Shown: positions 5,070-51,779, counted from the stretch's first letter. The stretch: DNA of 64,000 nucleotides from Candidatus Sungiibacteriota bacterium (GCA_016206285.1 JACQRW010000007.1:16455-80454), one strand, 5' to 3'. Translations and numbers: made by a program. Notes: a model not told the origin generated them from the letters alone.

Positions 5070-5071
5070 GA

Positions 5072-16727: not shown

Positions 16728-16739
16728 GAGGATAAGCGA

Positions 16740-21823: not shown

Positions 21824-22005
21824 CCATTGCCCAACCTGCCGAATATGGCACTATATTACCACGTCCCGATACAAAAGTCAAATCTAATCTGGGTGGAAGG
21901 AAAGACAAAAACCGCAGAGCGGATCATGTGGTTTGGCTACAGTCAAATCAAAAACTTTGACGAGACCAAAAGAAAACGCTACACTTGCAGCATAATAAAG
22001 CCCCT

Positions 22006-22914: not shown

Positions 22915-22917
22915 AAT

Positions 22918-27199: not shown

Positions 27200-27247
27200 C
27201 GCCCGTTTGATAAAAAAGACGATCCATACTATACTGGGAAACAGAAT

Positions 27248-28039: not shown

Positions 28040-28047
28040 AAGCACCT

Positions 28048-29576: not shown

Positions 29577-29595
29577 CAAAAGTAATTATCAGTCA

Positions 29596-29631
29596 GTATA
29601 CAAATTAAAACGATCGTCGAAATTTGTATAC
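29596..29631. promoter_or_regulatory. Second copy of the 36-bp GTATACAAATT-N14(CGATCG core)-AATTTGTATAC dyad element
   Basis: GTATACAAATTAAAACGATCGTCGAAATTTGTATAC has the same 11-bp arms and CGATCG centre as 8970..9005, and the same position between a stop codon and the next start (ATG at 29649). Confidence 0.55.
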
Positions 29632-29648
29632 TAAGAGAGAACCATAAT

Positions 29649-30620: not shown

Positions 30621-30650
30621 TTGCCATGCAAGCCCTTTTTTAGTACACTT

Positions 30651-31355: not shown

Positions 31356-31380
31356 ACTTTAAACTTTTTTATATCGCCTT

Positions 31381-35582: not shown

Positions 35583-35587
35583 GTCAG

Positions 35588-36418: not shown

Positions 36419-36426
36419 AAAATGAA

Positions 36427-37584: not shown

Positions 37585-37606
37585 AATCTATCGTTTTACG
37601 ATGTCC

Positions 37607-38662
37607 TTATATTTTTAGTTCCATTATGCACATGATTTTCTCGATCAACCCTTCGACGCGATGATGTTCAACCACAATAGCACGCATTGAGTGCCTAAGA
37701 TCGTCACGAGCAAGAATATCCATGTGCATGAGCACCATGAGCTTTTTTGCAAGCTCAACAGAGTTCTTTTTTTCAAACATGAGCAGGTCGCAATGTTTTC
37801 CAAGTACGTCCATATACGCCTCGTTGCACGTCAACACAGGGAGTCCGGTTGCCATGGCCTCGAGCCCGGCTTTGTCGAGACTGCCGGTAAGTCCGGTGTT
37901 CACGAAAATATCGGCACTTTGAAGATACACCAAAATATCTTTATGCGGCACTCCGCCAATAAACCGGATATGCGGTCCCATTTTTTTTTCTTTAACCGCA
38001 CGATACAGTTCCTCGGCATAGGACTCCTGCCCCCCACGACCCGCACTGCCGATAATATCCGCCTCAAACCGCTCGCCAGCCTCCGCAAGCAATACAAGCG
38101 CTTGTATCAGCGTCTGCTGATCTTTTGCCGGGGAAAGTCTGCCAATCATGATAATCTTTGGCACTACATTTTCTTGCCGCACGATAGGAGCAAAGTGATC
38201 CGTATCAATCCCCTGGCCGACAATACGCACCTTCTTACTTGGCAGTCTGAAGCCGCTTGCTGTCGAGGTAAATATGACATCAGCCATTTTCTCCCCGGCG
38301 CGCAAAGACATACTTATTGCCCCATGCGCATACCAAAGTGATATTTTTTTCCGAAGCAGCCGCCACTCCAACCATCCCAATATGACATAAATCTGATTCA
38401 TATGCACAAACACCGCATCATATGCATTTCGCTCGCGCCAGATTAAATACCAGAAACGCAGCGCGTATCGTAAGCGGGATGACCCGCGCTCTTTTCCCAG
38501 AGAAAAAACTTTCACGTTCTGCGGCAAATGATGCGTTCCTTCTTCAAGACAAATCACCGCCAGCGCCTCGCACCGTTTGGCGAATTCCTCGATCCACCGG
38601 TGCATAAATCCAAGCACCTGGTCCCGCTCGTCAACTTTTTGCGTGATAATCAGTAATTTCAT
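37607..38662 (-). CDS. Glycosyltransferase family 4
   Basis: GLEAMATGLPVL and overall GT-B layout. Confidence 0.75.
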   Translation of the reverse strand: MKLLIITQKVDERDQVLGFMHRWIEEFAKRCEALAVICLEEGTHHLPQNVKVFSLGKERGSSRLRYALRFWYLIWRERNAYDAVFVHMNQIYVILGWLEWRLLRKKISLWYAHGAISMSLRAGEKMADVIFTSTASGFRLPSKKVRIVGQGIDTDHFAPIVRQENVVPKIIMIGRLSPAKDQQTLIQALVLLAEAGERFEADIIGSAGRGGQESYAEELYRAVKEKKMGPHIRFIGGVPHKDILVYLQSADIFVNTGLTGSLDKAGLEAMATGLPVLTCNEAYMDVLGKHCDLLMFEKKNSVELAKKLMVLMHMDILARDDLRHSMRAIVVEHHRVEGLIEKIMCIMELKI

Positions 38663-38681
38663 AACAGATAAGACTGCTATC

Positions 38682-39863
38682 CTACTCCTTCCTCTTGCGT
38701 GTCTGTATATAGACTATTTCGTCTTTACTAATTTGAAACGCACTAGAGCTATCTCCATCTTTCCCAACGACGAAGACAAATTGACTAGATTCTCCAATCA
38801 AGAATAAATGCCGCTCCTTAGAAAGAGGAAGTTCTTGCTTCATTTTAACCTCGACTTCTCTAGGCTCACCACCACCAATAGAGAAAGGGATCCTTGGAAA
38901 AATGATTTGCCCAAACAAAATAAGAGCGCCGATAATTGGAATAAAGATGTGCTGAAATGTTAGTTGCAAGCTGTTAAGTGAGTTCACACTGCCGAAACTT
39001 TTGAATATATCCAACGATAATCCATCTTTAGGAAGATAGAAGTTCAGAAAAAAGTAAGTGGTGAGAATAGTGACATAGAACCATGCGAAAACTAAATTAG
39101 GAGTTAATGTTTGATGACTATTAAAAGAATTAAAATCAAATAGGCTGACTTTAAGTTTCAGATAGGAGTAATAAGCGATACTTGCTAAGACGCAGAGAAT
39201 GAGAGTCTCTATAGAACACCTTAAGAGATATAACGGGGTTAAGAGCTTTTTTTCCGCTTTGGGATTTTCTTGAATCTCTTCTTTTTTTACTTCATCGGCA
39301 CTAAGGGGTTCTTTTTTTCTTCTTGGAACATTGTCTTGGATAATAAAAATGAGGACTAAAACCAGAAATGCGATGAGGGAGTACGAAAATGCGTATATGG
39401 CAAATTTAATAATAAAATTAGAACCACCGCCTAGTTTCAAGTTAAATCCATCGATAAAATAACCAATAAAATCATAATTTCCAAACCATGGTTTAAAAGT
39501 AAGACTCTCTTCCTTTGCTGGAGAGATGTACTTTCCTAGATCAAAGAATAAAGAGAGGGCATAGCTAGCACCCCATATTAGTGACCAAAACGTAAAGTAA
39601 GATTGAAAGCGATCAGACCAGCCCTCTACATCATAAATTTTTTTCAGAGAAACATCCTTGTATAACCGCCACACGATTAATAGGACAAGAGTAATTGCAA
39701 GAAAAGAGAAAAAGCCAGCAATAATAAATCGGGAATTAACTACATCGAAACTTACAATGCCAAAACGGGCAAAATATGAAGTTAGCGAGATAAAGCCAAA
39801 AAGATAAAGTACAACTCCGCAGGCAACAAATAATTTTGATATCTCTTTCACTTTCTCAAACAT
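38682..39863 (-). CDS. Polytopic integral membrane protein, low GC (candidate Wzy-like polymerase/ligase or other glycan-processing membrane protein)
   Basis: 393 aa with about 10 hydrophobic segments; markedly AT-rich relative to neighbours. Confidence 0.5.
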   Translation of the reverse strand: MFEKVKEISKLFVACGVVLYLFGFISLTSYFARFGIVSFDVVNSRFIIAGFFSFLAITLVLLIVWRLYKDVSLKKIYDVEGWSDRFQSYFTFWSLIWGASYALSLFFDLGKYISPAKEESLTFKPWFGNYDFIGYFIDGFNLKLGGGSNFIIKFAIYAFSYSLIAFLVLVLIFIIQDNVPRRKKEPLSADEVKKEEIQENPKAEKKLLTPLYLLRCSIETLILCVLASIAYYSYLKLKVSLFDFNSFNSHQTLTPNLVFAWFYVTILTTYFFLNFYLPKDGLSLDIFKSFGSVNSLNSLQLTFQHIFIPIIGALILFGQIIFPRIPFSIGGGEPREVEVKMKQELPLSKERHLFLIGESSQFVFVVGKDGDSSSAFQISKDEIVYIQTRKRKE

Positions 39864-39888
39864 ATAGATAATTTAAAAAGATTACCAA

Positions 39889-41016
39889 CTATACTGTACA
39901 TATCTCAAAACTCTTCCGGTACAATTCAAGATATTCGGCTTCGCTGTGGGGTTTTATTTCGGCAACCGTACGGCGGGCAGCATCTACAAATGCGCGCCGC
40001 TTTTCCGGATGGCGATAGAGATCAAGGACCGCATCCAGAAACGCCGGAGCGTCTCCAACCGGCACTACTCGGCCATTCACGCCGTCTTTGACCACCTCTC
40101 CGGCCAACCCTACATCCGTCATCACCAGCGACACTCCGGCCGCCATTGCTTCTATCGCAACCAATCCCCACCCTTCGTAGTTTGACGAAACCAACACAAT
40201 ATCGAAACATTTATAAAACGATGCAAGATCGTTGCGCCACGGTTCAATGAGAACATTTTTCTCCAATTGATAATTGATAATTGATAATTGATAATTTTTC
40301 CTGTCCGGTCCATCGCCGACCAGCACGAGTACCGTGCGAGGTTCTTGCTTCACCAACTCAGCCATCATCTCGATCAACATGCTGAAATTCTTTTCCTTGT
40401 CTACAAAACGCCCGACTGCGATCATACGAAAGGCATATTCTTTGAGACGGGACAGATCCTCAGCCTTGGGAGATGAATAAGAGAACGACGCAAGATCTGT
40501 ATATATCGGCAATACGGAAATTTTCGATTTCGGGATACGCAACCCGGCAAGCAATGAACGCTTGATGCGCTCGCTCACTACGCGTACGCAATCAGCCCGC
40601 GGGAGCAGAAATCGAGCCAGTAGAACACGAAAATATTCCTTCAGGGATGCCCGCCGGTACAGCGGATTCAAGACATCGGTATGCACTTGCAGCTGCAGTT
40701 TAATGCCAAAACGCCGGGAAATATGAAAAGCAATCAATCCGACTTCGTCAGGCCCTTGTGTGCTAACCACGTCAAAATGAACGGAGCGAGCAAGCGAACG
40801 CGCAATCGTACGCATGCGCCAGCGGCCCATAAATGGATTTTTAGCCGATGCCGGATACAGAAAAAGTTTCCCGCTTTGCTGATTTTCAGACTCGGGCCCT
40901 GCCAATACTACGACATGCAACTCATCAAAAAGCTCCGCATAGCGCTCTATGCGTTTTCGCGCGTTGCTTCCGGCAACGCAGATATTCGGGTCTTCTGAAA
41001 GCATTAAAATCTTCAT
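39889..41016 (-). CDS. Glycosyltransferase family 4 (contains an internal 7-nt x4 tandem repeat)
   Basis: GLVAIEAMAAGVSLV GT4 C-terminal motif. AATTGAT x4 at 40264..40296 encodes NYQLSIINYQL. Confidence 0.75.
   Translation of the reverse strand: MKILMLSEDPNICVAGSNARKRIERYAELFDELHVVVLAGPESENQQSGKLFLYPASAKNPFMGRWRMRTIARSLARSVHFDVVSTQGPDEVGLIAFHISRRFGIKLQLQVHTDVLNPLYRRASLKEYFRVLLARFLLPRADCVRVVSERIKRSLLAGLRIPKSKISVLPIYTDLASFSYSSPKAEDLSRLKEYAFRMIAVGRFVDKEKNFSMLIEMMAELVKQEPRTVLVLVGDGPDRKNYQLSIINYQLEKNVLIEPWRNDLASFYKCFDIVLVSSNYEGWGLVAIEAMAAGVSLVMTDVGLAGEVVKDGVNGRVVPVGDAPAFLDAVLDLYRHPEKRRAFVDAARRTVAEIKPHSEAEYLELYRKSFEICTV
40264..40296. repeat. Tandem heptanucleotide repeat (AATTGAT)x4 plus partial, inside a GT4 coding sequence
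   Basis: Direct reading of the sequence: aattgataattgataattgataattgataatt. Confidence 0.8.
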
Positions 41017-43250
41017 ATGTTTTTAAGCAGTGTTGAAATCTCGTTCAGCATTCGCGCAGTGGAAAATGATTCAGCTTTTTTCCGTGCACGCTCAGACAAC
41101 CTACCGGCGAAATGATGATCATTCAGAATTCGCATAACCGCAGCCTGCATTTGGCCAATATCGTTCCAATCGAAAAATAATCCAGTTTCTCCGTCCTGAA
41201 TGAGTTCAATATTTCCTCCGGCCCTGGTTGTGCAGATCGGAATACCGACTGCCATTGCCTCAAGCAGCGTGTGGGAAAACCCCTCGTAGGCAGTATTGAG
41301 TATAAAAATATCTCCCGCAACAAACGCCGCAAGCACATCCTCATGGGATAGATTGCCGGCAAGCGAAACAATTGCCTCTGTATGATACTCGTGAATCTTT
41401 TGAGCGAGAGATTCGCGCTCCGGACCACTGCCGATAATCACAATATGAATATCGGGAATATCCTTTTGTAGTTCTCTACCAAGCTCGATAAGGGCGTTAA
41501 AGCCCTTCCATGGCACAAGCCGGCCCACAGAAACGAGAACAGTCCCTACAAGACCAAGCTTTTTTCGCGCCTCATCTTTGGAAAGCGTACGCGCCGGAAG
41601 ATCAAACGCGTTATAAATCACCGTAATCCGTTCCGGTTCAATGCCCCATTGTGTTATAACATCCCGCAAATATTCGCTGGGTACCACAATCGCATCAGCA
41701 CGATTGGCGCTCCACTTTTGCAATCGGCGAAACAACTCCACTTTCCATCCGTATTTTTTCTTCAAAAATTGATCCAGCCGGTCAGATATGCCGAACCGCT
41801 GGCTGCCCTGCTCCCATGCGTAATCACCCACGATTTTAAGCACGAATTTCTTGCGAAGCAGTATTGCAGCCACGGCCACAGGAATCCCGACCGAAACCGG
41901 ATCTTGGGCAAAAATAACATCAGCATGAATGCTCTTTAAAAATACTTTCCAGAAATATGCGACATGACGGACCAGCTTCGGCATATGCCGCACGGTACGA
42001 AACGGCAACACCGTCACCGCAAGCCCGGCTTTTGGCAATTCCTCCTGCAGCAGCTTACTGTACGTCGCCGGCCCGCCGATTTCAGGCGGGAAAATTCCAG
42101 TGGCAATCAGAATATGCCTGCGAGCCGCCAACACCCGACCAAAGACCTCTTCATACTGTTTGGCAATCGAATCCCAAAGGAAGCGCTCTCGTACCATCTT
42201 ATTTCCGTTCTCAATAATTGATGTGCGTAACTGCGGATCATGCAGCAGGAGCATTATCTTTTCCGCGGCATCTTGCGAATCGTCCACATGCGCAAATAAT
42301 CCAGTTTTCCCATCGGCAATAATATCCGTGATCCCGCCCACCGGAGTACCGATGATAGGGAGACCCGCGGCAAGCGCCTCTACAAAAGAAACCCCCATGC
42401 CTTCGGACCGGGACAAACGCACAAAAATATCAGCCCGGGCAAGATGCGATGGCACGTCCGCAAAAGGAATGCTGCCTAAAAATTTGACCTCGTTTTCAAC
42501 TCCGAAATCCCGTGCAAGACGCTCAAGCGCCATCCTATCCGGCCCGTCTCCAAGAATATGGCACTGGATGAGTTTGACAGTCTTTTTTAACAGAGCAATT
42601 GCGTGAATAAGCGTATCAACGCCGTTTTTTTCCACTAAGCGCGAGGTAGTGATGATAACAGGCGCAGTGATTGAAGTCTCACTTCGATCAAATTTCGGGG
42701 TAAATTTTTCAATGGTGACACCGTTATGGATGGTATCAATCACGCCTTCATAGCCATAGGCACGGGCGACATTTCCCAGATATGAAGAAATAACAGTGAC
42801 TCCGTCCGCGTGATTTAGCATCTGCCGAAGTGCCGCGCCGATCATGCCAAGTCTGCCCGACGCAAGCCGGCTATCGCCGTACCCGTATTGGATATTAAGA
42901 ACAAACGGGCATCGGGGCAGCAGTATTTTACAAAACAAAGCGGCAACGGAACCTTGTGAAATATCTACTCCCAATAATACGGCCTTCTCTCCTTTGCCGA
43001 TATTCCGCCAAGCAACAATACAACCCAAAAATGGCAGGAGCCACTTATCCAGTCCGGAGCCAAAGCCCACCCTGATCACATTTCCTTCGGCACGAGCCTC
43101 GCGCTTTGGGAGAGCGCGGGAAAACCTGGCCGTCACAATAGAAACATCAAATGTATCCTGAAGTCTTAAGCTTATTTCCTTGATTGCCGTCTCAACCCCT
43201 CCGACAAAGGGATAATATGCGGTCGTGAAAATAATAAGTTTTCTTTTCAT
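41013..43250 (-). CDS. Bidomain glycosyltransferase (two GT4/GT-B modules fused, 745 aa)
   Basis: Two separate GT4 C-terminal motif regions (RSEGMGVSFVEALAAGLPII and YEGFSHTLLEAMAVGIPI). Confidence 0.75.
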   Translation of the reverse strand: MKRKLIIFTTAYYPFVGGVETAIKEISLRLQDTFDVSIVTARFSRALPKREARAEGNVIRVGFGSGLDKWLLPFLGCIVAWRNIGKGEKAVLLGVDISQGSVAALFCKILLPRCPFVLNIQYGYGDSRLASGRLGMIGAALRQMLNHADGVTVISSYLGNVARAYGYEGVIDTIHNGVTIEKFTPKFDRSETSITAPVIITTSRLVEKNGVDTLIHAIALLKKTVKLIQCHILGDGPDRMALERLARDFGVENEVKFLGSIPFADVPSHLARADIFVRLSRSEGMGVSFVEALAAGLPIIGTPVGGITDIIADGKTGLFAHVDDSQDAAEKIMLLLHDPQLRTSIIENGNKMVRERFLWDSIAKQYEEVFGRVLAARRHILIATGIFPPEIGGPATYSKLLQEELPKAGLAVTVLPFRTVRHMPKLVRHVAYFWKVFLKSIHADVIFAQDPVSVGIPVAVAAILLRKKFVLKIVGDYAWEQGSQRFGISDRLDQFLKKKYGWKVELFRRLQKWSANRADAIVVPSEYLRDVITQWGIEPERITVIYNAFDLPARTLSKDEARKKLGLVGTVLVSVGRLVPWKGFNALIELGRELQKDIPDIHIVIIGSGPERESLAQKIHEYHTEAIVSLAGNLSHEDVLAAFVAGDIFILNTAYEGFSHTLLEAMAVGIPICTTRAGGNIELIQDGETGLFFDWNDIGQMQAAVMRILNDHHFAGRLSERARKKAESFSTARMLNEISTLLKNI

Positions 43251-44659
43251 GAGATGAGAAAATGCTTCACGAAGAAAAACCCGATTGCGCCAAGCGCGCT
43301 TAGTCCGATTGCTCCGGCAAACATCATCCGGGATGAAACGGAAAACCCTGCCGCAATTGCCGCGGGATTGTGAGACTCATTGTGTATATTCTGTGAAGCG
43401 GCGCTTTCATCAGGCGCAAAATCCATGGGATGCGATGCTTCTTGAGACTGCGGTACGGCGCTTTTCGGTGAGGAAGCGCCCGCCGTAAGATTTGCCGCTG
43501 ACGCGTTTTGAATCTTTGCCGGCTGGGAGGATGTTGCTATGGATCCGGCAGGACTGTTTGGAGTCTCCGGCTCAATATACGAAAGGGCGATCGTGCCATT
43601 CGGATACTGAATCGTAAGCGAATTCCGCACTCCGGCCATAAGAAGTCCGGTCACCGCATTGGAGAGCGACAGATCTCCCCCGGCCGCAATTTTGGTCTTT
43701 GGGGGAATAAAAAACTCCTTATGTGACCCGTCTTCGATGATCCAATCGCCAATATCTACTTCTGTTTTAAGCGGATTAACAAGCTGTATATATCCCTCTC
43801 CTCCGGATACAACGCGGCCAACACGCATTTGGTTCTCAAGCACCCGGACTGTCGCATAGTCAGAAGACGAGTATTCACCCGAAGAAACATGCAGTCCCAC
43901 AATATACGTGCCGGGAATGCGAAAAATATGCTCGATAACTTTCCCCTCCTGCGTCTCACCATCGCCGAAATTCCACCAGAAACGCGCAGGAGCCAGGGGC
44001 TCTTTTTTAAGCCCCAGCGCAATGCCCCTGAACTCAACCAGCGAACCTGCGGTTGACGTCTGATCCGAGCCTGCATCAACGCTGATCTGTGCGTTGGAAG
44101 AAATTGCCGGAGCAGATGCAGAAGGCGGTGGCGCAGCTCCGACGCTTCCGGTCGGAGCCCCGACCCCCTGCCCCGACGGTACCGTCGGGGTGAAGGGCGT
44201 CGGGGGAGTAAGAACACTGCTCGACCCGTCATTGGATACGGTAATCGCCTGACTGGTTGTCCATGATGTTCCCGATTCCTTGCCGCGTGCTTTTACCGTA
44301 AGCATATAAAGCCCCGGAGTGGAATCTCTGTAATAGAACGAGCGGTTTGCAGTTCCTTTGCTCATCACCCACGCACTCACGGGACTTGAACTTGCGTTCA
44401 CAAACTCTCCAGTTGAAGACGTCGAAGAAAATTCCAGATAAATAGTCTCTATGCTTTTGATTTCCTTGTCGTTCACATCCTGTGCCTGAATGGTCAGAGC
44501 GCCTGAACGTTTTGCCGGCTGTACGGTTTGCGGCTCTGTGGTAAATATGAAATGCGTAATTTCAGAAGCGGCAAAGACGCTTCCGGCAAAAGATACTATA
44601 TACACAAAAAGGAAAACAGCCAGAAGCTGTTTTCCTAAATTGCGCGCTCCTATTCCCAT
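43247..44659 (-). CDS. Surface-anchored protein with PKD-like domain, N-terminal signal/TM and C-terminal TM anchor
   Basis: WWNFGDGETQEG...GTYIVGLHV (PKD signature), hydrophobic N- and C-termini, Ser/Thr/Pro-rich linkers. Confidence 0.6.
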   Translation of the reverse strand: MGIGARNLGKQLLAVFLFVYIVSFAGSVFAASEITHFIFTTEPQTVQPAKRSGALTIQAQDVNDKEIKSIETIYLEFSSTSSTGEFVNASSSPVSAWVMSKGTANRSFYYRDSTPGLYMLTVKARGKESGTSWTTSQAITVSNDGSSSVLTPPTPFTPTVPSGQGVGAPTGSVGAAPPPSASAPAISSNAQISVDAGSDQTSTAGSLVEFRGIALGLKKEPLAPARFWWNFGDGETQEGKVIEHIFRIPGTYIVGLHVSSGEYSSSDYATVRVLENQMRVGRVVSGGEGYIQLVNPLKTEVDIGDWIIEDGSHKEFFIPPKTKIAAGGDLSLSNAVTGLLMAGVRNSLTIQYPNGTIALSYIEPETPNSPAGSIATSSQPAKIQNASAANLTAGASSPKSAVPQSQEASHPMDFAPDESAASQNIHNESHNPAAIAAGFSVSSRMMFAGAIGLSALGAIGFFFVKHFLIS

Positions 44660-44675
44660 ATCGAAGACCCGGAGA

Positions 44676-45428
44676 TTATTTCGCCTCGCGCTCATGCAGA
44701 CGCACAAGCGCTTTTTGCAAATTGGCATCATCAGGATTTGCCGCAATCCCCTGTTTCAAAACCTGCTCTGCCTGTGCCGCCTTTTCTTTGTAGAAAAAGA
44801 TATACAGATCGGAGAGTCCAAGATATCCCATGACATTTTTTGGTTCGGCCTTGATGGCGCCCTGATAGTTTTTTTCGGCCTTAGGATAGTCTTTCAGATA
44901 ATTCGTATACAGATCGCCCAAGTTCAGAAATGCGGTTGCTTCGCGCGGACGCGCGATGGTCACATAAATCCAGATATCCCGTGCGCCTTCATAGTCTTCA
45001 ATGGTTTTTTTAAGAATGGCTGTCTGAAGCCATGCCGCTATATATTCAGGACTTTCTTTGGCCATCTTGGCATACTTTCGGATATTTGCCGAGATATCAT
45101 CCCTATGCGCGACGCTCATGGATTGGAGTGCGGCCTGTCCGAATCTCACTTCGTCAAGAGGCCGACCGCGATATGCGACAACGGATTGGGTATGAGGGGT
45201 TCCGGAAGCGCCAGGAACACCCTGATCTGGCATATTACCGGACGAAGAAGTGGCAGTCTGGTCGCTGGAAATTTTTGATTGATCTGTTGATGGTGTTGAG
45301 GTTGATTCTATACCCTTATTTTCTTCCTGAACTTTCAAGGCGGAAGGAAAAATACTTGCGCGAAAGATAAACCCCGCGCCAACCAGCAACGCAATGACAA
45401 TTCCAATAATAATTTCTTTATATTGCAT
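44676..45428 (-). CDS. TPR-repeat protein with N-terminal TM helix
   Basis: N-terminal IIIGIVIALLVGAGFIF; TPR-like repeats (AEKNYQGAIKAEPKNVMGYLGLSDLYIFF...). Confidence 0.65.
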   Translation of the reverse strand: MQYKEIIIGIVIALLVGAGFIFRASIFPSALKVQEENKGIESTSTPSTDQSKISSDQTATSSSGNMPDQGVPGASGTPHTQSVVAYRGRPLDEVRFGQAALQSMSVAHRDDISANIRKYAKMAKESPEYIAAWLQTAILKKTIEDYEGARDIWIYVTIARPREATAFLNLGDLYTNYLKDYPKAEKNYQGAIKAEPKNVMGYLGLSDLYIFFYKEKAAQAEQVLKQGIAANPDDANLQKALVRLHEREAK

Positions 45429-45518
45429 ACAATCATGCTACCATAGCCGGCCAACAATGGTCAAACAAAAATCCCCCCGAAGGGGGATTTTGCACTCACA
45501 CACAAGGATTGTGAGATT

Positions 45519-48500
45519 TTACTGAGACTGCAAGCTCTCCTGTGTCGTACCGATTGCAGGCAGACCCTTGACCTGATATCCGTTGGTGAAATCAAGATCC
45601 TGGATCGTATTCTGCGTGGTGGTTGACACTGGCGACCAGATGAACGCATTGTTTGTGTCTGCATCCACCGAGCTGGTCACTGCCGTGCTGCCCTGGCTTC
45701 CTGCTTTCGACATGAGCGTTGCCGTGTTTACCGGATACGCCGAGTCACCTCTCAAGTTAACCGTAATGGTGTCCTTGCTGTTGGTGTTTGTCGAAACATT
45801 TGCCGCGGTTGCACGAAGCTGGAAGTAGCGTGTCGAACCATTCGGGACGATATAAGTCGTCGTTGCGCTGCTGTTGCAGCTTGTCTTGTCAGGATAGATC
45901 GAGATCGTTCTCGGACCCGCTGCGGTTGAAGACAACCCGTTGAAGCAGGTACCTGCGTTGACCAAACCGGTTGCGGAGAATGTCGAGTCAATCGTCGAGA
46001 ATCCTGAGTCAGTGTACGCATATACTGCATACGCGGAGGTCGTCGCCATGAGCGATGAGGAACCGATAGCAAACGAGAACTTATACAGTGCTACGTCGCC
46101 ATTCTGAGCTTTTACGCTGAACTTGTAGAGAATGTTGTCTGCTTTGCTGCTGACAATCTTCTCTGCGGAGCTCAATGCAATATAGCTTACGATCGGATAT
46201 GACCTCATGATCCGTACTCCGGCTGATGCCGAATCCGCGCTGGTCGGGGTAATGGTAGCTCCTGATGCAACACCGGTTCCGTAGTTACCGTTTACGCCGT
46301 TGTTTCCTCCGTCGTAATCAACAATCAACAGATCTCCGGATGCGGTCAGGTTTGCGCTCGGACCGATTGCCGAGATATCACCCTTGATGACCAAAGTCTT
46401 AGATCCGCCTTTTGGAATACGGAATGCTCCTGCCGTGATCAAGCTTGATGTCGCGTTGTCTCCTGATCCGAATGATGCGGTTCCGACAAGCGCCATGGTG
46501 TCTGCATCGTACAGAGACACTTTGTTGTCGGCCAAATCGTTCGGGGTGTTTGAAGCAACACCGGTCAATTGCAGCGCAATCTGCTTGACATCGACATCTT
46601 CATTCACTGCGCTGTACTTGATGCGCGCGAGTTCAACTCCGGTTGTGCCTCCCGTGACAATCGCGTAGCCCGGGCTGTTGGTGTCAAGTACTGTCGAGAG
46701 AGTTCCGCCCGATGATGCCGTCATTTGCTGGCCTGCCGCATCGGTGAATGTCTCGGCAATAGTTTGTCCGCTGCCCAAGCCAGTCACTCCGGTAAAGGAT
46801 GCGTTCTGTCCCGCATCAATACCCCACTGGTACACTCCGGTTGATCCGCTGCGGACATCACACTTCATGGAGAGCGTCTTTGAGTTCCCCTTGGCCAAGA
46901 CCAAGCCAGTTCCGTCAAAGGTAATGCTCGTGGAAGATGCAGTGTCGGTTGATACCGGATTCTTCTTATTGCTGCTGTTTACTGAAGTGGTTCCGTCATA
47001 GAGCTGACAATTGGTCAGATCGTTGCGGTTTCCTGAAACTGCGTTGAAGTAAAGCGGGATTGATACCACGCGCACATCTTCTCCGGATGCTGTCGTGTCA
47101 AAGATGTAGCGTGCGAATTCAAACTGCAAGGATCCTGCGATCACGGTCTGCGCAACCGGTACGGTTGCGACGTTTACCGTCAAGGCGCCGGTCTTTACCG
47201 TCATGGTGTTCATGGCGATTGCCGCTGCCGGTGACGGGGTGATCGAGTTGCCGCTGTTCTGACCTTTTGCCGAAGCAAAGTCAGTGCTTGGGGTGGTTGA
47301 TGCCTGGATCGTGACGTTGTTGGTTATGTCAGATCCCACCTTACCTTTGAGGGTATAGGTGTGAAGACCAACCGGGAAGGTAATGCTCGTTGAGAATACC
47401 AACACACCGTCAGCAGAACCGCCTGTATCAGTCGTGTCAGATGCGTTTCCGTCAACCGGACCGCCAATGACACTGCCGTTTTCGTCAACCAATGAAACGT
47501 TGGTCAGATCATCTACATCCATCGTAGCAACTGTCTCATCAACAAGCGTTACGTTGAATGCCACTTTGGTTACCGTGATCGGCTCACCCTTTACATCCGT
47601 AGTAAATGCTCCCAATGGAACATTGTTTACGTTTACGGCAATGTTTTGGGCAGCTACCGCGTTTGAAGTGCTGACGCTGATCGTACCTGCGGATACGGTT
47701 ACCGTACCGCCGGCATACCATGGATCCTCACTCGAAGTGAAGTTCGGGCTGGTGTGATCAGCAGCTGCCGTGCCGGTCTGCGGAGGCATAATGCCGAATC
47801 CGTAGGTCTGGCCGTTCAAGCCGATGTCAACACGTTTTGCGATATCGAAGATAATGGTGCGTCCGGATCCTCCGATAATGTCACCCTTGATCGAAAGTTC
47901 CTTTGAAAATCCCTTGTCGATCAAAAGTCCCTGACCGCTGTTGTCGGTAAATGTCGTTGTATAGTACTTGCCATCCGAGCTGACCACCGCGTCATATGCG
48001 ACGCCGTCTACATAGGTCTTGACGTTAGCAAGATCTCCTGATGCAACCGATCCAGTCTGGTTCCAGCGGATGTACTTGAGATATACCTTTTCCGCAGATC
48101 CTGCAGTTACGCGGACTGCTGAAAATGTGTATGCAAGCTCACCGATGTTTTTCGTGATCGCCGCACCCGGATCAGTTGATCCGCGCTGCATGCTAACCGT
48201 TCCGATTGAGACCGTACTGTTGTAGGTCTGGCCATTGCCGACAATCGGTGCTGTTGCGGAAACACCGTTTACTGCGGTTGTTCCTGCGTTTACTCCAACC
48301 AAAGCAATCTGAATCACCTGGCCGTTGTATGAGCTGTTTGCCGCAACCATGTTACCTGCAAGGGTAAGTGTTCGCGTGCTGCCAGCTTTTACTACTACCG
48401 GTTCATTCAATAATGCCTGATGAAGCGAGTTCAAAGTCTTGGAAAGGCCGAGCTGCGCTCCGTTCTCATCCAGCAATACTACGCTATCAAGCGCCGCATC

Positions 48501-49238
48501 GTTGGAAGGTCCTTTGCGCTCTACGGTGAGACCGGTAATGGTTACATCACCGTCTGCAGAAGCCATAAATTTGACTCGGGTAAACGGTACGCGTGCCGCT
48601 CCGCCCGGAGCAAGGTTTGCAACCGGCTGGTTTGCGTCAAGCATGACGCTCAATCCCGTTGCTACCGGTGTTACCGGCGTTGCAGGCGTTCCCGGGACAC
48701 CCGGGACACCTGGAACTCCTGGAATACCCGGTGTTGCCGGTGTCGGCGGAGTTGGTACCTGTGCTACCTGCGCATTGTATGCTGCGCGCGATATCGGTCC
48801 GAAGTATCCGGCTGCCGGAGAAACTCCTGCCGCTACCTGCCATTTAGCTACTGCGGCTCTGGTCAGGACACCAAAGTATCCGGTTGCCGCCACATTCAGA
48901 TACCCTCCTGCAATCAAGGTGTTTTGAAGGCAAGTGACATCATCTCCCCGAGATCCGACTGTCAGACTCCGGGTGAAGGTGCACTTTGCCCCGGTCATTG
49001 CGCCAGTTCCCGTACCCTGCTGCAATGCCGCGATCTGTGCTTGGAGCGCCGCGATCTGTGCCATCAGCGATTCGATGGTAACAGTCTGTGCGACTGCAGC
49101 CAACGGCATGATGATCGCCGCTCCTGAAATCGTGATGGCCGTTGCCAATGCCGCAACTTTCTTAAGTCCGCGGCTGCCACCACTAAAGGATAATATATTC
49201 ATAATGTTCGTATATTTTGCCATCCGCTGGCAGAACAA
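45519..49238 (-). CDS. Very large (1239 aa) secreted cell-surface protein: signal/TM, coiled-coil, peptidoglycan-binding domain, Pro/Thr linker, Thr/Ser/Gly/Val-rich beta-rich body (S-layer-like)
   Basis: LAAVAQT signal; IAALQAQIAALQQG coiled-coil; GSRGDDVTCLQNTLIAGGYL...GYFGVLTRAAVAKWQ PG_binding_1-like domain; PTPPTPATPGIPGVPGVPGVPGTPATPVTPV linker. Confidence 0.7.
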   Translation of the reverse strand: MFCQRMAKYTNIMNILSFSGGSRGLKKVAALATAITISGAAIIMPLAAVAQTVTIESLMAQIAALQAQIAALQQGTGTGAMTGAKCTFTRSLTVGSRGDDVTCLQNTLIAGGYLNVAATGYFGVLTRAAVAKWQVAAGVSPAAGYFGPISRAAYNAQVAQVPTPPTPATPGIPGVPGVPGVPGTPATPVTPVATGLSVMLDANQPVANLAPGGAARVPFTRVKFMASADGDVTITGLTVERKGPSNDAALDSVVLLDENGAQLGLSKTLNSLHQALLNEPVVVKAGSTRTLTLAGNMVAANSSYNGQVIQIALVGVNAGTTAVNGVSATAPIVGNGQTYNSTVSIGTVSMQRGSTDPGAAITKNIGELAYTFSAVRVTAGSAEKVYLKYIRWNQTGSVASGDLANVKTYVDGVAYDAVVSSDGKYYTTTFTDNSGQGLLIDKGFSKELSIKGDIIGGSGRTIIFDIAKRVDIGLNGQTYGFGIMPPQTGTAAADHTSPNFTSSEDPWYAGGTVTVSAGTISVSTSNAVAAQNIAVNVNNVPLGAFTTDVKGEPITVTKVAFNVTLVDETVATMDVDDLTNVSLVDENGSVIGGPVDGNASDTTDTGGSADGVLVFSTSITFPVGLHTYTLKGKVGSDITNNVTIQASTTPSTDFASAKGQNSGNSITPSPAAAIAMNTMTVKTGALTVNVATVPVAQTVIAGSLQFEFARYIFDTTASGEDVRVVSIPLYFNAVSGNRNDLTNCQLYDGTTSVNSSNKKNPVSTDTASSTSITFDGTGLVLAKGNSKTLSMKCDVRSGSTGVYQWGIDAGQNASFTGVTGLGSGQTIAETFTDAAGQQMTASSGGTLSTVLDTNSPGYAIVTGGTTGVELARIKYSAVNEDVDVKQIALQLTGVASNTPNDLADNKVSLYDADTMALVGTASFGSGDNATSSLITAGAFRIPKGGSKTLVIKGDISAIGPSANLTASGDLLIVDYDGGNNGVNGNYGTGVASGATITPTSADSASAGVRIMRSYPIVSYIALSSAEKIVSSKADNILYKFSVKAQNGDVALYKFSFAIGSSSLMATTSAYAVYAYTDSGFSTIDSTFSATGLVNAGTCFNGLSSTAAGPRTISIYPDKTSCNSSATTTYIVPNGSTRYFQLRATAANVSTNTNSKDTITVNLRGDSAYPVNTATLMSKAGSQGSTAVTSSVDADTNNAFIWSPVSTTTQNTIQDLDFTNGYQVKGLPAIGTTQESLQSQ

Positions 49239-49982
49239 AAGATTATTAAAGATTTTTGCTTTGCCCCGGACAACGTTACTAACAGAAACTTTTTTCTGTC
49301 TCTTCCTGTTTCAGTAAAGACAGAAAAAGCTTCGTGCCTCTGAACGCTTCACTTCTTATCCTTGTCGACGAACTGGATTTGAGATGAAGCGTATTTTGAT
49401 TTGAATAATGAAGAAGAAAAACTTTGGAGCCAAGTTCCCCTCATCCAGCCCCTATTTTCAACAGCAAGCTCAACATCACCAAACCTTGCGGCTGAAAATA
49501 GGAGCTGGACTTAAGGAGATCGACCGAATCTTGAAGCCCCAAGTAAGGAAACCTCCAACTGCGTTCGATATCTCAATTCCTTGTTTTCTCAATTGTCAAT
49601 GTTCTCTCCGATCAGCCAGTGACTTCCATGCATCCCATATAATAAGAAACGTTCCAAAATTGTAACCTTTCTTATTATATGAGTGCGGGACTTTTTCTGA
49701 TATACGTAAACCAAACCAAAAATGGCTTTCTTAAAAATTAGATGTAATCAGGCGTTCCACATACTTATATCATAAGTATACTGTTCTCACAAGCATGCGC
49801 AAGTGCACTTATCCACAAAAAGTATTTCCCTTAGATATCATGCAAATTGCGCTTATTTTCGAACTCTCTCCAGTATAGAGCCAGCTGCCTTGTTCGACAA
49901 GCCCTGGCCCTGTGGATAACATATATCATGCTTGCATATACACTCATTTGCGCCCATTTATAGAGCCTCTTAAGAGAGTATC

Positions 49983-50942: not shown

Positions 50943-51779
50943 TTACTTGAGAGAATAGATCGTCCAACGTTTTTCGCCTTCTTTTTTAAGGACATCTTTT
51001 TGCACCAGATCGTGCAGATCGCGTTGGATAGTTTTAGCGCTTACATCAGCAAGCAGGGTCTGGAAATCACTTATTTTTGCCTGGGACACCTTTTCTACAA
51101 AGCTAAGTATATCTTTTTGGCGACCGGTTATACTGGCATTTTGACCGGAGTGGCGTAGCAAAGGTTTTTGAGAAACTTGCTTCTCACTGTCTTTGGCGGG
51201 GCCGTCAGAATCAATACGCCTGTTGGGCATGGACATTTCCGGACCGCTTTGTCTTGTCGCCTTCTGATTATGCCCGGTATATTCTGCGTTCGTTCGGTCA
51301 GGCGAAGCGTGCTGCTTCCCATGACTCTCACTCACTTGATTATACTCTGTATATTCGGCGTTCGCTCGGCCTCGAGAAATGGGTTTCTCGCGGCTCTCAC
51401 TCACTTGATTATAACCCGCTGCATCGGGGTTCCAGTCACGATTTTGGGAAATATTGTTCACGGCAAGTTCCTGCCTGAAAAAATGTTCAAGCGCTTCATA
51501 CTCGCGTTCAAGGATAGTCAGGTTGATCGGCCGGACCAGCCGCATGGCACGGCTCACGCGCAAATACCCTTTTATGGTTTCAACCCTGGCAAGCACACTA
51601 AGAGCCTCCGCTTCATGACTGCCGGCATAATCGTATTCGGTGACATTTCCAAAAATTTCGTTTGCCTTTTCCCGAAGCTGCCGCTTGAGCGCCTCCCCCT
51701 GCGGAAAAAAATCCGTTACGCGGTAGAGCGCCAGGGTGAGTTCAAACGCTTTGCGATGCAATTCTTGCGAAGTGTTCAT
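50943..51779 (-). CDS. Four-helix-bundle (23S-rRNA-IVS/Avd-family-like) domain fused to an internal 25-aa tandem repeat and a C-terminal winged-helix DNA-binding domain
   Basis: N-terminal LHRKAFELTLALYRVTDFFPQGE resembles the TIGR02436 family. YNQVSES...NAEYT is repeated twice (~75-nt DNA repeat at about 51290..51440). C-terminal ILSFVEKVSQAKISDFQTLLADVSAKTIQRDLHDLVQKDVL is a DeoR-like HTH. Confidence 0.5.
   Translation of the reverse strand: MNTSQELHRKAFELTLALYRVTDFFPQGEALKRQLREKANEIFGNVTEYDYAGSHEAEALSVLARVETIKGYLRVSRAMRLVRPINLTILEREYEALEHFFRQELAVNNISQNRDWNPDAAGYNQVSESREKPISRGRANAEYTEYNQVSESHGKQHASPDRTNAEYTGHNQKATRQSGPEMSMPNRRIDSDGPAKDSEKQVSQKPLLRHSGQNASITGRQKDILSFVEKVSQAKISDFQTLLADVSAKTIQRDLHDLVQKDVLKKEGEKRWTIYSLK

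What the first reader, a model, noticed from the sequence alone, without database searches (positions are those of the whole stretch)
45519..49238. 1239-aa S-layer-like surface protein immediately downstream of the glycan locus
The protein has a signal/TM segment, a short coiled-coil (IAALQAQIAALQQG), a peptidoglycan-binding-domain-like module and a PGIPGVPGVPGVPGTP linker. The remaining ~1000 residues are dominated by T, S, G, V, A and N and are predicted to be beta-rich. It lacks obvious enzymatic motifs. It is followed on the same strand by a TPR membrane protein and a PKD-domain anchored protein, then by the glycosyltransferase genes. This is the classic layout of S-layer glycosylation (slg) loci. 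A 740-bp non-coding leader upstream (49239..49982) fits a strongly expressed structural gene.
Basis: partly seen in the sequence, partly recalled or inferred. Interest (0 to 1): 0.55.

Follow-up and report, generated by a model that had tools for sequence, protein, structure and literature searches.

The report
Cell-wall-anchored S-layer protein of Parcubacteria
This gene most likely encodes the main surface-coat (S-layer) protein of an ultra-small Candidatus Sungbacteria bacterium; the protein family had already been predicted to form S-layers, but its conserved promoter, which carries a DnaA box, appears to be unreported.

Summary
The ORF at 45519-49238 (-) is real, but the conserved start is the ATG at 49202, giving 1227 aa, identical to a GenBank "peptidoglycan-binding protein" of Ca. 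Sungbacteria.

The family is full-length collinear, about 45-58% identical across Parcubacteria, and found in at least 447 GTDB species.

A 2024 preprint predicts hexagonal S-layer lattices for ~1130-1270-aa Patescibacterial proteins with six Ig-like domains. Homologues are among the five most expressed secreted genes in two cultured relatives. I could not check identity to those accessions directly.

The "classic slg locus" reading is only partly right. Glycosylation genes lie within 4 kb in 21/77 loci, and no WsaB-type transferase was found.

The constant neighbours are a membrane TPR protein (60/78 loci) and a winged-helix protein (57/70).

Apparently unreported: a promoter with an AGTTATCCACA (DnaA-box) element, a ~400-nt 5'UTR and a strong terminator. 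The same promoter type precedes dnaA, lexA, rpoB and pilin genes.

The parts
45519..49202 (-). S-layer protein gene (1227 aa plus stop); corrected start at ATG 49202
   Evidence: ORF. The start is conserved in relatives and equals the public 1227-aa protein at 100% identity.
49089..49202 (-). Sec signal peptide (residues 1-38; predicted cleavage AVA|QT)
   Evidence: Read from the sequence: charged n-region (R, KK), hydrophobic core, AXA site. All family members start with the same kind of segment (consensus; N-termini).
49014..49076 (-). Short heptad-repeat helix (coiled coil), mature residues about 5-25
   Evidence: Helix 6-23 in the AlphaFold model at low-to-moderate confidence. The family consensus AQIxxLLAQIxALQAQL is conserved.
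48759..48983 (-). Peptidoglycan-binding domain (PG_binding_1) with a conserved Cys pair
48654..48758 (-). Disordered Pro/Thr-rich linker (includes PGIPGVPGVPGVPGTP)
   Evidence: pLDDT about 35. It is the least conserved segment, 0.30 mean column conservation.
45789..48653 (-). Six diverged beta-sandwich modules, period about 165 aa. Cores at mature residues 165-247, 320-404, 490-584, 654-745, 817-905 and 985-1095.
   Evidence: All-beta, pLDDT mostly above 85. hhalign between module profiles: D1-D5 95.6%, D2-D4 97.4%, D2-D5 94.9%, D4-D5 97.3%, D3-D4 75%, D6 weak. Fold hits are only generic Ig-like or cohesin-like.
45522..45788 (-). C-terminal tail with the invariant motif W-SP-STT...D-TNGY-V-GLP
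   Evidence: Invariant columns W1151, P1153, S1155, T1156, D1166 and N1169 in 60 sequences. Conservation of the last 45 residues is 0.64.
45473..45487 (-). Intrinsic terminator directly after the stop codon (TCCCCCTTCGGGGGG followed by a T-run)
   Evidence: A terminator-like hairpin lies within 150 nt of the stop in 74/77 homologous loci, against 8% of control segments.
49872..49919 (-). Promoter P1: GTTATCCACA (DnaA-box consensus) followed by TTGTCG, 17 nt, TATACT
   Evidence: The box-plus-promoter arrangement is conserved in 50/73 loci (59/73 allowing one mismatch), with a fixed spacing of 29-33 nt from the box to the -10.
49775..49817 (-). Promoter P2: inverted box (TGTGGATAA) followed by CTTGCG, 17 nt, TATACT
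   Evidence: The block is nearly invariant in three Sungbacteria loci. Box location; sequence read.
49203..49865 (-). Long 5' untranslated leader (about 565-660 nt, depending on the promoter used)
   Evidence: No conserved ORF. Long invariant blocks are shared with relatives. The family-wide predicted 5'UTR has a median of 400 nt, IQR 355-556.
49344..49509 (-). Conserved structured part of the leader: long hairpin 49444-49509 and hairpin 49344-49392, flanked by invariant sequence
   Evidence: Inverted repeats I1 and I3. RNAalifold on four Sungbacteria leaders gives 13 pairs kept through changes on both sides. No Rfam family matches.
44676..45428 (-). Conserved partner gene: single-pass membrane protein with an S/T-rich linker and a C-terminal TPR domain
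   Evidence: Pfam TPR_19 and related families; sequence. A homologue lies directly downstream in 60/78 loci and in L001-L006 and L087.
50943..51779 (-). Conserved upstream gene: helical N-terminal domain, low-complexity region and a DeoR-like winged helix (putative regulator)
   Evidence: Weak HTH_DeoR hit; sequence. A homologue lies upstream on the same strand in 57/70 loci.
43247..44695 (-). PKD + lamin-tail-domain surface protein with a C-terminal membrane anchor. Clade-specific neighbour; likely start at ATG 44695.
   Evidence: Pfam PKD_4, PKD and LTD; sequence. Found only in Sungbacteria relatives and in 7 of 86 loci.
99..43250 (.). Large glycan-synthesis locus. It holds a Wzt ABC ATPase with a Wzt_C domain, a rhamnosyl O-methyltransferase, GT2/GT4/GT11 transferases, sugar epimerases/dehydratases, nucleotidyltransferases, and a PMT_2 GT-C enzyme at 34155-35645.
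   Evidence: Pfam scans. No Wzy_C/O-antigen-ligase-type enzyme was found.

Best explanation
The gene encodes the principal S-layer (surface lattice) protein of a Candidatus Sungbacteria (Parcubacteria/Paceibacteria) cell.

Proposed mechanism, with shown and inferred steps marked:
1. Transcription (sequence features shown, activity inferred). The gene is transcribed as a monocistronic unit. It starts from sigma-70-type promoters that carry a DnaA-box-like element just upstream of the -35. The transcript has a long structured 5'UTR that probably stabilises the mRNA, and it ends at a strong intrinsic terminator.
2. Export (inferred from the sequence). The protein is exported by Sec and its signal peptide is cleaved at AVA|QT.
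3. Anchoring (domain shown, binding inferred). The N-terminal PG_binding_1 domain, preceded by a short coiled coil, binds the cell's own peptidoglycan non-covalently. A flexible Pro/Thr linker spans the wall.
4. Assembly (inferred). The six beta-sandwich modules and the conserved C-terminal tail self-assemble into a hexagonal lattice outside the wall. This rests on multimer predictions published for homologues, not on anything tested here.
5. Partners and glycosylation (weakly inferred). The downstream membrane-anchored TPR protein is a conserved partner, perhaps an assembly or anchoring factor. The T/S-rich surface may be O-glycosylated by products of the adjacent glycan locus, with PMT_2 as the candidate transferase.
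For: Architecture:
- Signal peptide, coiled coil, PGBD, linker and about 1045 aa of confident all-beta structure made of six related modules.
- Composition typical of S-layer proteins: pI 4.8, 6 Cys, T+S 23%.
- No enzymatic domain.

Family:
- 936 and 1395 hits in two searches.
- 535 cluster representatives at E <= 1e-30, collinear over the full length.
- At least 447 GTDB species across Sung-, Giovannoni-, Yanofsky-, Harrison-, Niyogi-, Campbell-, Lloyd-, Buchanan- and Kuenenbacteria.

Prior work:
- bioRxiv 10.1101/2024.05.28.596244 identifies a Patescibacterial SLP of 1131-1274 aa with six Ig-like domains. It predicts p6 'hexagonal spiral pyramid' lattices and says homologues are numerous across Patescibacterial classes.
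- Homologues are among the five most expressed signal-peptide genes in two cultured Paceibacteria. Those genes are the PGBD proteins of Kuroda et al. 2024. PMX_810_sub_00350 is 2079 nt, which gives 692 aa, and the preprint's Yanofskybacteria entry is 692 aa.
- Cryo-EM shows S-layers on CPR cells.

Expression signals:
- Consensus promoter conserved in 50-59 of 73 loci.
- Median 400-nt 5'UTR, with compensatory changes in a leader hairpin.
- Terminator in 74/77 loci.

Against a host-binding role for the PGBD: the hosts of the cultured relatives are methanogenic archaea. These lack murein (established knowledge), so the PGBD fits self-anchoring better.
Against: - No experiment shows a lattice made of this protein or of any homologue.
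- I could not run multimer or lattice predictions.
- Identity with the preprint's accessions (A0A1G2EN61, A0A1F5NRV7, A0A0G1WWP5, A0A1F4NSF7, GMX59286.1) rests on matching architecture, length range, taxonomy and the Kuroda cross-reference. It is not a direct sequence comparison: afdb50 was unavailable and cluster look-ups gave no matching accession.
- The lattice constant predicted for the six-domain form (18.5 nm) differs from the 13 nm measured on unidentified Patescibacteria.
- About 50% identity across class-level lineages is unusually high for S-layer proteins.
- Fold searches return no solved S-layer protein near the top.
- Kuroda et al. interpret the PGBD proteins as host-attachment factors.
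Confidence: 0.75

Rival explanations
1. It is a host-attachment adhesin. The PGBD or the Ig-like modules would bind the surface of the host cell at the episymbiotic contact site, and no cell-wide lattice would form.
For: Kuroda et al. 2024 propose this role for the highly expressed PGBD proteins. The top Foldseek matches include Ig-like domains of adhesins such as PrgB and antigen I/II C123. Tandem Ig-like surface proteins are often adhesins (general knowledge).
Against: - The similarity to adhesins is generic: TM <= 0.2 and 8-10% identity.
- The protein is about 45-58% identical over its full length across lineages that should have different hosts. Host-binding adhesins usually diversify.
- The hosts in the Kuroda cultures are archaea without murein, so the PGBD cannot be the host-binding part there.
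- The gene has the expression signals of a bulk structural protein.
Confidence: 0.12
2. It is a wall-bound structural protein that does not form a 2D crystal, for example a fibrillar coat, a spacer, or a scaffold that carries glycans or other proteins. The true S-layer subunit would be another protein.
For: The measured 13-nm lattice fits the shorter three-domain PGBD protein better than the six-domain form. Other abundant signal-peptide surface proteins share the same promoter type. The pTM of 0.46 shows flexible arrangement between domains.
Against: The three-domain protein is described as replacing the six-domain one in a genome that lacks it. The six-domain family is the most widespread. 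No alternative large secreted protein is conserved in the neighbourhood.
Confidence: 0.08
3. This rival concerns the slg reading only. The 43-kb glycan locus would make a wall-linked or membrane-linked polysaccharide unrelated to this protein, and its adjacency in this genome would be incidental.
For: - Only 21/77 homologous loci have a PMT-like or GT4 gene within 4 kb.
- In L002, L003 and L087 the gene sits among housekeeping genes.
- No WsaB/Wzy_C-type O-oligosaccharyltransferase is in the window.
- Wzt with a Wzt_C domain plus a terminal methyltransferase is equally typical of O-antigen-like polymers (general knowledge).
Against: - PMT-family GT-C genes lie immediately downstream of the gene in L001 and L004, and GT4 clusters follow in L001 and L004-L006.
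- The protein is 23% Ser+Thr.
- The conserved TPR partner recalls TPR-bearing GT-C O-mannosyltransferases that act on beta-sandwich domains. That comparison comes from my own knowledge and was not tested.
Confidence: 0.5

Closest known systems
Patescibacterial six-Ig-domain S-layer protein family predicted with SymProFold (bioRxiv 10.1101/2024.05.28.596244). Examples: Nealsonbacteria A0A1G2EN61, Doudnabacteria A0A1F5NRV7, Kaiserbacteria A0A0G1WWP5, Kazan A0A1F4NSF7, Parcubacteria GMX59286.1.
   Same: - Same phylum.
- Same length range (1131-1274 aa against 1227 aa).
- Six beta-sandwich modules.
- Widespread across classes.
- The members that were expressed in culture are PGBD proteins.
- The window protein is almost certainly a Sungbacteria orthologue.
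   Different: - Not compared residue by residue, because the sequences could not be fetched here.
- As far as I could read, the preprint does not describe the promoter, the 5'UTR, the TPR and winged-helix partners, or the link to glycan loci.
- The assignment there is also purely computational.
Highly expressed PGBD proteins of Ca. Yanofskyibacterium, Microsyncoccus and Minisyncoccus (Kuroda et al. 2024, mBio, PMC10936435)
   Same: Signal peptide plus PG_binding_1 plus Ig-like domains, in Paceibacteria. These provide the only expression data for the family.
   Different: The authors interpret them as extracellular host-attachment proteins. The Yanofskyibacterium protein is a short form of 692 aa with three domains.
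Haloferax volcanii S-layer glycoprotein csg
   Same: Six Ig-like domains in a row, an acidic Thr-rich glycoprotein, and a hexagonal lattice. This is the analogy drawn in the preprint.
   Different: - Archaeal and lipid-anchored at the C-terminus rather than PGBD-anchored at the N-terminus.
- No detectable sequence similarity, and it does not appear among the top fold matches.
- The predicted orientation is reversed, with the C-terminus at the pyramid tip.
Gram-positive S-layer glycoproteins and their slg clusters (Geobacillus stearothermophilus SgsE/SbsC, Paenibacillus alvei SpaA)
   Same: - Secreted, acidic, multi-domain 'beads on a string' protein with a dedicated N-terminal wall anchor.
- Strong promoter, long leader and terminator.
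- In this genome the gene sits next to a glycan locus with Wzt, a methyltransferase cap enzyme and many glycosyltransferases.
   Different: - The anchor is PG_binding_1, not SLH domains that bind pyruvylated wall polymer.
- No WsaB-type (Wzy_C) transferase; the candidate here is a PMT_2 GT-C enzyme.
- The link to the glycan locus is not conserved across the family.
DnaA-box-regulated promoters (the dnaA autoregulation paradigm in E. coli and B. subtilis)
   Same: A perfect TTATCCACA consensus lies next to the core promoter. The same composite precedes dnaA itself in metagenomic contigs.
   Different: The main target is a surface-layer gene, together with pilin genes, rpoB and lexA. The box sits at a fixed position of about -51 to -43. 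No binding or regulation has been shown.

Membership tests
Patescibacterial six-domain SLP family (SymProFold preprint) | Length of about 1130-1275 aa with six consecutive Ig-like/beta-sandwich assembly domains | tested here: met
   1227 aa. Six modules of about 165 aa are related by profile-profile comparison, and the model is all-beta at pLDDT 85.5.
Patescibacterial six-domain SLP family (SymProFold preprint) | Homologues numerous across Patescibacterial classes | tested here: met
   At least 447 GTDB species, 535 cluster representatives at E <= 1e-30, and many candidate phyla named.
Patescibacterial six-domain SLP family (SymProFold preprint) | Direct sequence homology to the listed accessions (A0A1G2EN61 and others) | not testable with these tools
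   afdb50 was unavailable and cluster look-ups returned no matching accession. There is an indirect link through Kuroda's PGBD proteins, where 2079 nt gives 692 aa, the length of the preprint's GMX57981.1.
Patescibacterial six-domain SLP family (SymProFold preprint) | Predicted C6 plus C3/C2 interfaces that give a p6 lattice | not testable with these tools
   Only monomer prediction is offered. The monomer pTM of 0.46 is compatible with flexible beads on a string.
S-layer proteins (functional class) | Secreted, with a dedicated cell-envelope anchoring module | tested here: met
   Signal peptide. PG_binding_1 confirmed by sequence and by fold.
S-layer proteins (functional class) | Self-assembly into a 2D paracrystalline lattice that covers the cell | not testable with these tools
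   Needs microscopy or in vitro assembly. Only published predictions for homologues exist.
S-layer proteins (functional class) | Very high abundance or expression | tested here: inconclusive
   There are no expression data for this organism. Homologues are among the top five secreted transcripts in relatives. A consensus promoter, long leader and strong terminator are conserved.
S-layer proteins (functional class) | Typical composition: acidic pI, few Cys and Met, rich in hydroxy and small residues | tested here: met
   pI 4.84, 6 Cys, T 12.4%, S 11.0%, A 10.7%, G 10.4%.
SLH-anchored Gram-positive S-layer proteins | Three SLH motifs that bind secondary cell-wall polymer | tested here: not met
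   No SLH hit in Pfam or NCBIfam at E <= 1. The anchor is PG_binding_1.
S-layer glycosylation (slg) gene cluster | Structural gene next to glycosyltransferases, nucleotide-sugar genes and a Wzm/Wzt exporter | tested here: met
   In the window: GT4, GT2 and GT11 genes, NTP transferases, epimerases, Wzt with Wzt_C, and a rhamnosyl O-methyltransferase. Across the family only 21/77 loci have such genes within 4 kb.
S-layer glycosylation (slg) gene cluster | WsaB-type O-oligosaccharyl:protein transferase (Wzy_C/O-antigen-ligase family) | tested here: not met
   No such domain in any ORF of the locus scanned at E <= 0.01-0.05. A PMT_2 GT-C enzyme (34155-35645) is the only candidate protein glycosyltransferase.
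S-layer glycosylation (slg) gene cluster | The S-layer protein is actually glycosylated by the locus | not testable with these tools
   Needs glycoproteomics.
PG_binding_1 (PF01471) domain proteins | Three-helix PGBD fold with a match above the Pfam gathering score | tested here: met
DnaA-box-controlled promoters | Consensus 9-mer TTATCCACA at a conserved position relative to the core promoter | tested here: met
   50/73 loci have an exact box and 59/73 have at most one mismatch. The box-to--10 spacing is 29-33 nt, against 1.4% of random positions. The window has 4 boxes against 0.36 expected.
DnaA-box-controlled promoters | DnaA binds the box and changes transcription | not testable with these tools
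   Only circumstantial: the same composite precedes dnaA genes (L115, L206).

The most novel reading that the evidence does not exclude
In Parcubacteria the S-layer gene is the main target of a distinct promoter class. In this class a perfect DnaA box (AGTTATCCACA) sits at about -51 to -43 of a consensus sigma-70 promoter. The same class drives dnaA itself, lexA, rpoB, type IV pilin genes and other surface-protein genes. If DnaA is the factor that binds, these ultra-small cells with few regulators would use the replication initiator as a global growth-coupled regulator. It would tie synthesis of the cell envelope (S-layer and pili) and of RNA polymerase to the replication cycle. The 300-650-nt structured 5'UTR would add a second, post-transcriptional layer of control.
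Probability: 0.3. Interest if true: 0.7.

Novelty: new member of a known kind. Interest (0 to 1): 0.45.

Why it matters
CPR/Patescibacteria make up a large share of bacterial diversity. Their envelope is what meets the host and the environment, yet no S-layer protein of the group has been identified by experiment (a 2026 review only notes that S-layers were seen).

This locus gives a well-defined candidate:
- an exact start codon, a domain map and a high-confidence monomer model;
- two conserved partner genes, a membrane TPR protein and a winged-helix protein;
- a conserved transcription unit.

That is enough to design antibodies, heterologous assembly tests, and fits to in situ maps.

The regulatory side-finding matters more if it holds. 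It would be the first promoter class defined for Parcubacteria, and it points to DnaA as a global regulator of surface-structure genes. Public metatranscriptomes could test this directly.

Tried and rejected
1. Enzyme or known surface-family assignment. Pfam, NCBIfam and PDB sequence searches found only the PGBD.
2. A specific structural relative.
   - Foldseek against PDB gave only generic tandem Ig/MG-domain matches with TM <= 0.2.
   - No solved S-layer protein stood out.
   - The afdb50 library, which would have shown UniProt relatives, was not available.
3. Internal repeats by BLAST self-comparison: none. Profile-profile comparison was needed to see the six modules.
4. The profile search of the 1.84-billion-protein library failed because the profile had more than 1200 positions. 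It was rerun with the beta region as a single sequence.
5. A direct link to the preprint's accessions. I tried cluster look-ups, a second homologue search from a distant member, a contig look-up of a 1185-aa NCBI member and the Kuroda supplements. Only the 692-aa cross-match was obtained.
6. A known RNA family in the leader. Rfam gave nothing at gathering scores and only chance-level miRNA-like hits at E <= 1.
7. Leader homology across the family. nhmmer finds only close Sungbacteria relatives. Other clades have their own leader motifs, and 5'-proximal hairpins are frequent but not statistically uniform (median z -1.1).
8. The idea that the local winged-helix protein binds the TTATCCACA box. 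I rejected this as the main explanation because the same box-promoter occurs at rpoB, dnaA, lexA and pilin genes elsewhere.
9. A replication origin as the reason for the boxes. This is unlikely: there are only two boxes here, each paired with a promoter, and GC skew shows no switch across the window.
10. The PKD/LTD protein as a conserved partner. Rejected: it is found in 7 of 86 loci.

Full report
**1. The observation**

An ORF of 1239 codons from a TTG runs at 45519..49238 on the minus strand. Two close relatives (L005, L006) align with the upstream DNA only as far as ATG AAT ATA TTA TCC. The identical public protein P0001 ("peptidoglycan-binding protein", Candidatus Sungbacteria) has 1227 residues and starts MNILSF. 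The real start is therefore the ATG at 49202.

- The N-terminal segment has the form of a Sec signal peptide, with predicted cleavage at AVA|QT.
- The heptad stretch IAALQAQIAALQQG is modelled as a helix.
- The PGIPGVPGVPGVPGTP stretch is a disordered linker.
- The remaining ~1045 residues are confidently all-beta (mean pLDDT 85.5, pTM 0.46).
- The beta-rich part (from residue 201) is 12.4% T, 11.0% S, 10.7% A and 10.4% G.
- The mature protein has pI 4.8, and the whole protein has 6 Cys.
- No enzymatic family matches.

**2. Anatomy of the beta region**

BLAST self-comparison shows no repeats. Profile-profile comparison of alignment slices shows six related modules with a period of about 165 residues. 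Their cores lie at mature residues 165-247, 320-404, 490-584, 654-745, 817-905 and 985-1095.

| Module pair | hhalign probability |
|---|---|
| D1-D5 | 95.6% |
| D2-D4 | 97.4% |
| D2-D5 | 94.9% |
| D4-D5 | 97.3% |
| D3-D4 | 75% |
| D6 with any other | weak |

Module 2 is the most conserved part and the linker the least. The C-terminal tail carries an invariant W-SP-STT...D-TNGY...GLP motif.

**3. The family**

- The protein has 936 hits in the 5.8-billion-protein collection. The best 120 are 45-100% identical over more than 93% of the length. They are named Sung-, Giovannoni-, Yanofsky-, Harrison-, Niyogi- and Kerfeldbacteria, Paceibacterota and Parcubacteria.
- A search with the beta region alone against 1.84 billion cluster representatives gives 1577 hits, 535 of them at E <= 1e-30. 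They are collinear, and each has an N-terminal extension of about 150-260 residues.
- A search from a distant member reaches Buchanan- and Kuenenbacteria. There the PGBD is replaced by another N-terminal domain of about 130 aa that has no Pfam family. The assembly part is therefore conserved while the anchor is exchangeable.

**4. What is already known**

The supplement of bioRxiv 10.1101/2024.05.28.596244 reports a putative S-layer protein found by scanning a Nealsonbacteria genome. Its points are:
- The protein has six Ig-like domains in a left-handed spiral.
[quoted passage not shown] - Examples of 1131-1274 aa are listed.
- Homologues are among the five most expressed signal-peptide genes in two of the three Paceibacteria studied by Kuroda et al. 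2024.
- The third species has a three-domain version of 692 aa.

Kuroda et al. describe exactly such highly expressed proteins as PGBD-containing and read them as host-attachment factors. Their gene PMX_810_sub_00350 is 2079 nt, which gives 692 aa. That ties the two papers together.

The window protein has the same architecture, size, anchor and taxonomic spread. I therefore regard it as a Sungbacteria member of that family. I could not compare it directly with the listed accessions.

A 2026 review of the phylum says only that S-layers have been seen in some species. A 2025 S-layer review does not mention the phylum. The assignment is thus still purely computational.

**5. Gene neighbourhood**

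In the window the gene is followed on the same strand by:
- a single-pass membrane protein with a TPR domain;
- a PKD + lamin-tail protein with a C-terminal anchor;
- four GT4 genes and an unknown multi-pass membrane protein;
- a nucleotidyltransferase;
- a PMT_2 GT-C enzyme;
- a GT2-methyltransferase fusion.

Further along there are more glycosyltransferases, methyltransferases, sugar-modifying enzymes, a Wzt ABC ATPase with a Wzt_C domain and a rhamnosyl O-methyltransferase. This amounts to a ~43-kb ABC-transporter-type glycan locus. No Wzy_C/WsaB-type transferase was found.

Across 86 homologous loci the conservation is as follows.

| Neighbour | Loci with it |
|---|---|
| TPR protein directly downstream | 60/78 |
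| DeoR-like winged-helix protein upstream, same strand | 57/70 |
| PMT-like gene within 4 kb | 14/77 |
| GT4 gene within 4 kb | 10/77 |
| PMT-like or GT4 within 4 kb | 21/77 |
| PKD protein | 7/86 |

In L001 and L004 a PMT-family gene directly follows the S-layer gene. In L002, L003 and L087 the neighbours are housekeeping genes. The slg-like layout is therefore recurrent but not a defining trait. Glycosylation of this protein remains a hypothesis.

**6. The transcription unit**

*Terminator.* The stop codon is followed by a strong intrinsic terminator at 45487-45473. The same holds in 74 of 77 loci, against 8% of control segments.

*Leader.* The 780 nt upstream contain no conserved ORF. They share long invariant blocks with two Sungbacteria relatives whose proteins are 80-89% identical.

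*The box.* Across 75 loci the most widely shared upstream 9-mer is TTATCCACA, the DnaA-box consensus. It is present in 51 loci, in the sense orientation, and peaks 400-600 nt before the start codon.

*Its position in the promoter.* The box is followed at a fixed distance by a sigma-70-type promoter, (A)GTTATCCACA-N7-10-TTGnnn-N16-19-TATAAT, with 29-33 nt from the box to the -10. This arrangement is found in 50/73 loci with an exact box and 59/73 allowing one mismatch, against 1.4% of random positions.

*In the window.* There are two such promoters:
- P1 at 49919-49872.
- P2 at 49817-49775, with the box inverted.

The 64-kb window holds four boxes where 0.36 are expected.

*5'UTR.* The predicted 5'UTR is about 565-660 nt here and has a median of 400 nt in the family. 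In the Sungbacteria clade it contains a long hairpin in which 13 pairs are kept through changes on both sides, flanked by invariant sequence. No Rfam family matches.

Strong, sometimes multiple promoters, long stabilising leaders and strong terminators are classic for S-layer genes. That comparison is from my own knowledge.

**7. The box-promoter is a class, not a local oddity**

Within the homologous loci it also precedes rpoB (5 of 6 cases), second copies of the S-layer gene, and small signal-anchored T/S/G-rich surface proteins.

I also scanned the metagenome collection for AGTTATCCACA-N6-10-TTGC-N17-21-TATAAT, without reference to gene content. Of 104 with a downstream ORF:
- 37 are detectable relatives of this S-layer protein.
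- The rest include dnaA (two cases, Pfam-confirmed) and lexA or LexA-methylase fusions (about ten).
- They also include type IV pilins (about seven), LTD and other surface proteins, a 701-aa PGBD protein, mraZ and mscL.

Finding the composite in front of dnaA is the signature of DnaA autoregulation. It makes DnaA the most economical candidate for the binding factor, but nothing here shows binding. I found no paper that links this motif to CPR bacteria or to S-layer genes.

**8. Verdict**

The finding is real and its main interpretation is supported. The gene most likely encodes the peptidoglycan-anchored S-layer protein of a Sungbacteria cell (confidence about 0.75).

Rivals:
- A host adhesin (about 0.12). 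This is disfavoured by the high conservation across lineages and by the murein-free hosts of cultured relatives.
- A wall protein that does not form a lattice (about 0.08).

As an S-layer candidate it is a new member of a family already predicted in a preprint, which makes it moderately interesting.

The conserved TPR and winged-helix partners add new material. So do the near-universal terminator and the long leader. The DnaA-box promoter class, shared with dnaA, lexA, rpoB and pilin genes, adds the most.

Noticed in passing
window 49775-49919 (-); homologous loci L001-L087; metagenome loci L088-L207: A perfect DnaA-box consensus (AGTTATCCACA) sits 29-33 nt before the -10 of a consensus promoter. 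It is found upstream of the S-layer gene in 50-59 of 73 Parcubacteria loci. The same composite precedes rpoB, dnaA, lexA, type IV pilin and other surface-protein genes. In a metagenome scan made without reference to gene content, 37 of 104 hits with a downstream ORF lie upstream of relatives of this protein.
   Followed up: partly
window 49203-49865 (-), especially 49344-49509: The 5'UTR is long (about 565-660 nt here, family median 400 nt). In Sungbacteria relatives it has invariant blocks and a hairpin kept by compensatory changes. No Rfam match. Other clades have their own leader motifs, for example GATTCAGAGTGAGGCTGAATC just after the predicted transcription start in L001, L004, L044, L062 and L068.
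   Followed up: partly
window 49636-49681: A near-perfect 22+22-nt AT-rich palindrome lies in the leader. It is absent from the two aligned Sungbacteria relatives and looks like a small insertion.
   Followed up: no
window 44676-45428 (-): A membrane-anchored protein with an S/T-rich linker and a TPR domain lies directly downstream of the S-layer gene in 60/78 loci. Its function is unknown; it may be an assembly factor or a cofactor for glycosylation.
   Followed up: partly
window 50943-51779 (-): A protein with a helical N-terminal domain, a low-complexity middle and a DeoR-like winged helix lies upstream on the same strand in 57/70 loci. In Sungbacteria a nucleotidyltransferase gene (49983-50855) is inserted between it and the S-layer gene.
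   Followed up: partly
window 23820-26486 (+): Three genes resembling citryl-CoA synthetase and lyase parts sit inside the glycan locus, next to a hexapeptide acyltransferase. Their domains are ATP-grasp_2+Citrate_bind, CoA_binding+Ligase_CoA, and a citrate-synthase C-terminal domain alone. This is odd for a CPR genome; they might supply an acyl donor for sugar modification.
   Followed up: no
window 99-1828 (+): A Wzt ABC ATPase with a Wzt_C carbohydrate-binding domain is followed directly by a CmcI-type rhamnosyl O-methyltransferase. This pairing is typical of chain-length control by a terminal methyl cap in ABC-transporter-dependent glycan export.
   Followed up: no
P0245, P0312, P0331, P0394 (homologues from Buchanan-, Kuenenbacteria and others): In sister clades the PGBD is replaced by another conserved N-terminal domain of about 130 aa (GDLIK..AVYYLG.DGKRYVFPNEKTY.TW..DF..V...YRPG...DPKVY..). 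It has no Pfam family and no solved relative. It is a candidate new wall-anchoring module.
   Followed up: partly
L017, L023, L027, L038, L040, L060, L068, L031, L045: Some genomes carry two tandem or nearby paralogues of the S-layer gene, each with its own box-promoter where this could be checked.
   Followed up: no
L010, L011, L040, L046, L055, L065, L155: A family of small (200-390 aa), signal-anchored, T/S/G-rich proteins (..WATSVG.SV.VT..L.V.GA.TL..) lies near the S-layer gene and uses the same box-promoter. It may be a second abundant surface component.
   Followed up: no
L105, L114, L091, L142, L153, L162, L190: ORFs of 395-508 aa begin with a LexA DNA-binding domain. The one scanned (L105) also has a Peptidase_S24 domain and an N6/N4 DNA-methylase domain. 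All are preceded by the box-promoter with a short leader of about 80 nt.
   Followed up: partly
window 52954-52962 (-): A further exact TTATCCACA box lies downstream of clpB. No clear -35/-10 follows it, and its target is unknown.
   Followed up: no
window 38682-39863 (-): A 393-aa multi-pass membrane protein with no family match is embedded between the GT4 genes. It is a candidate polymerase, ligase or flippase of the glycan pathway.
   Followed up: no
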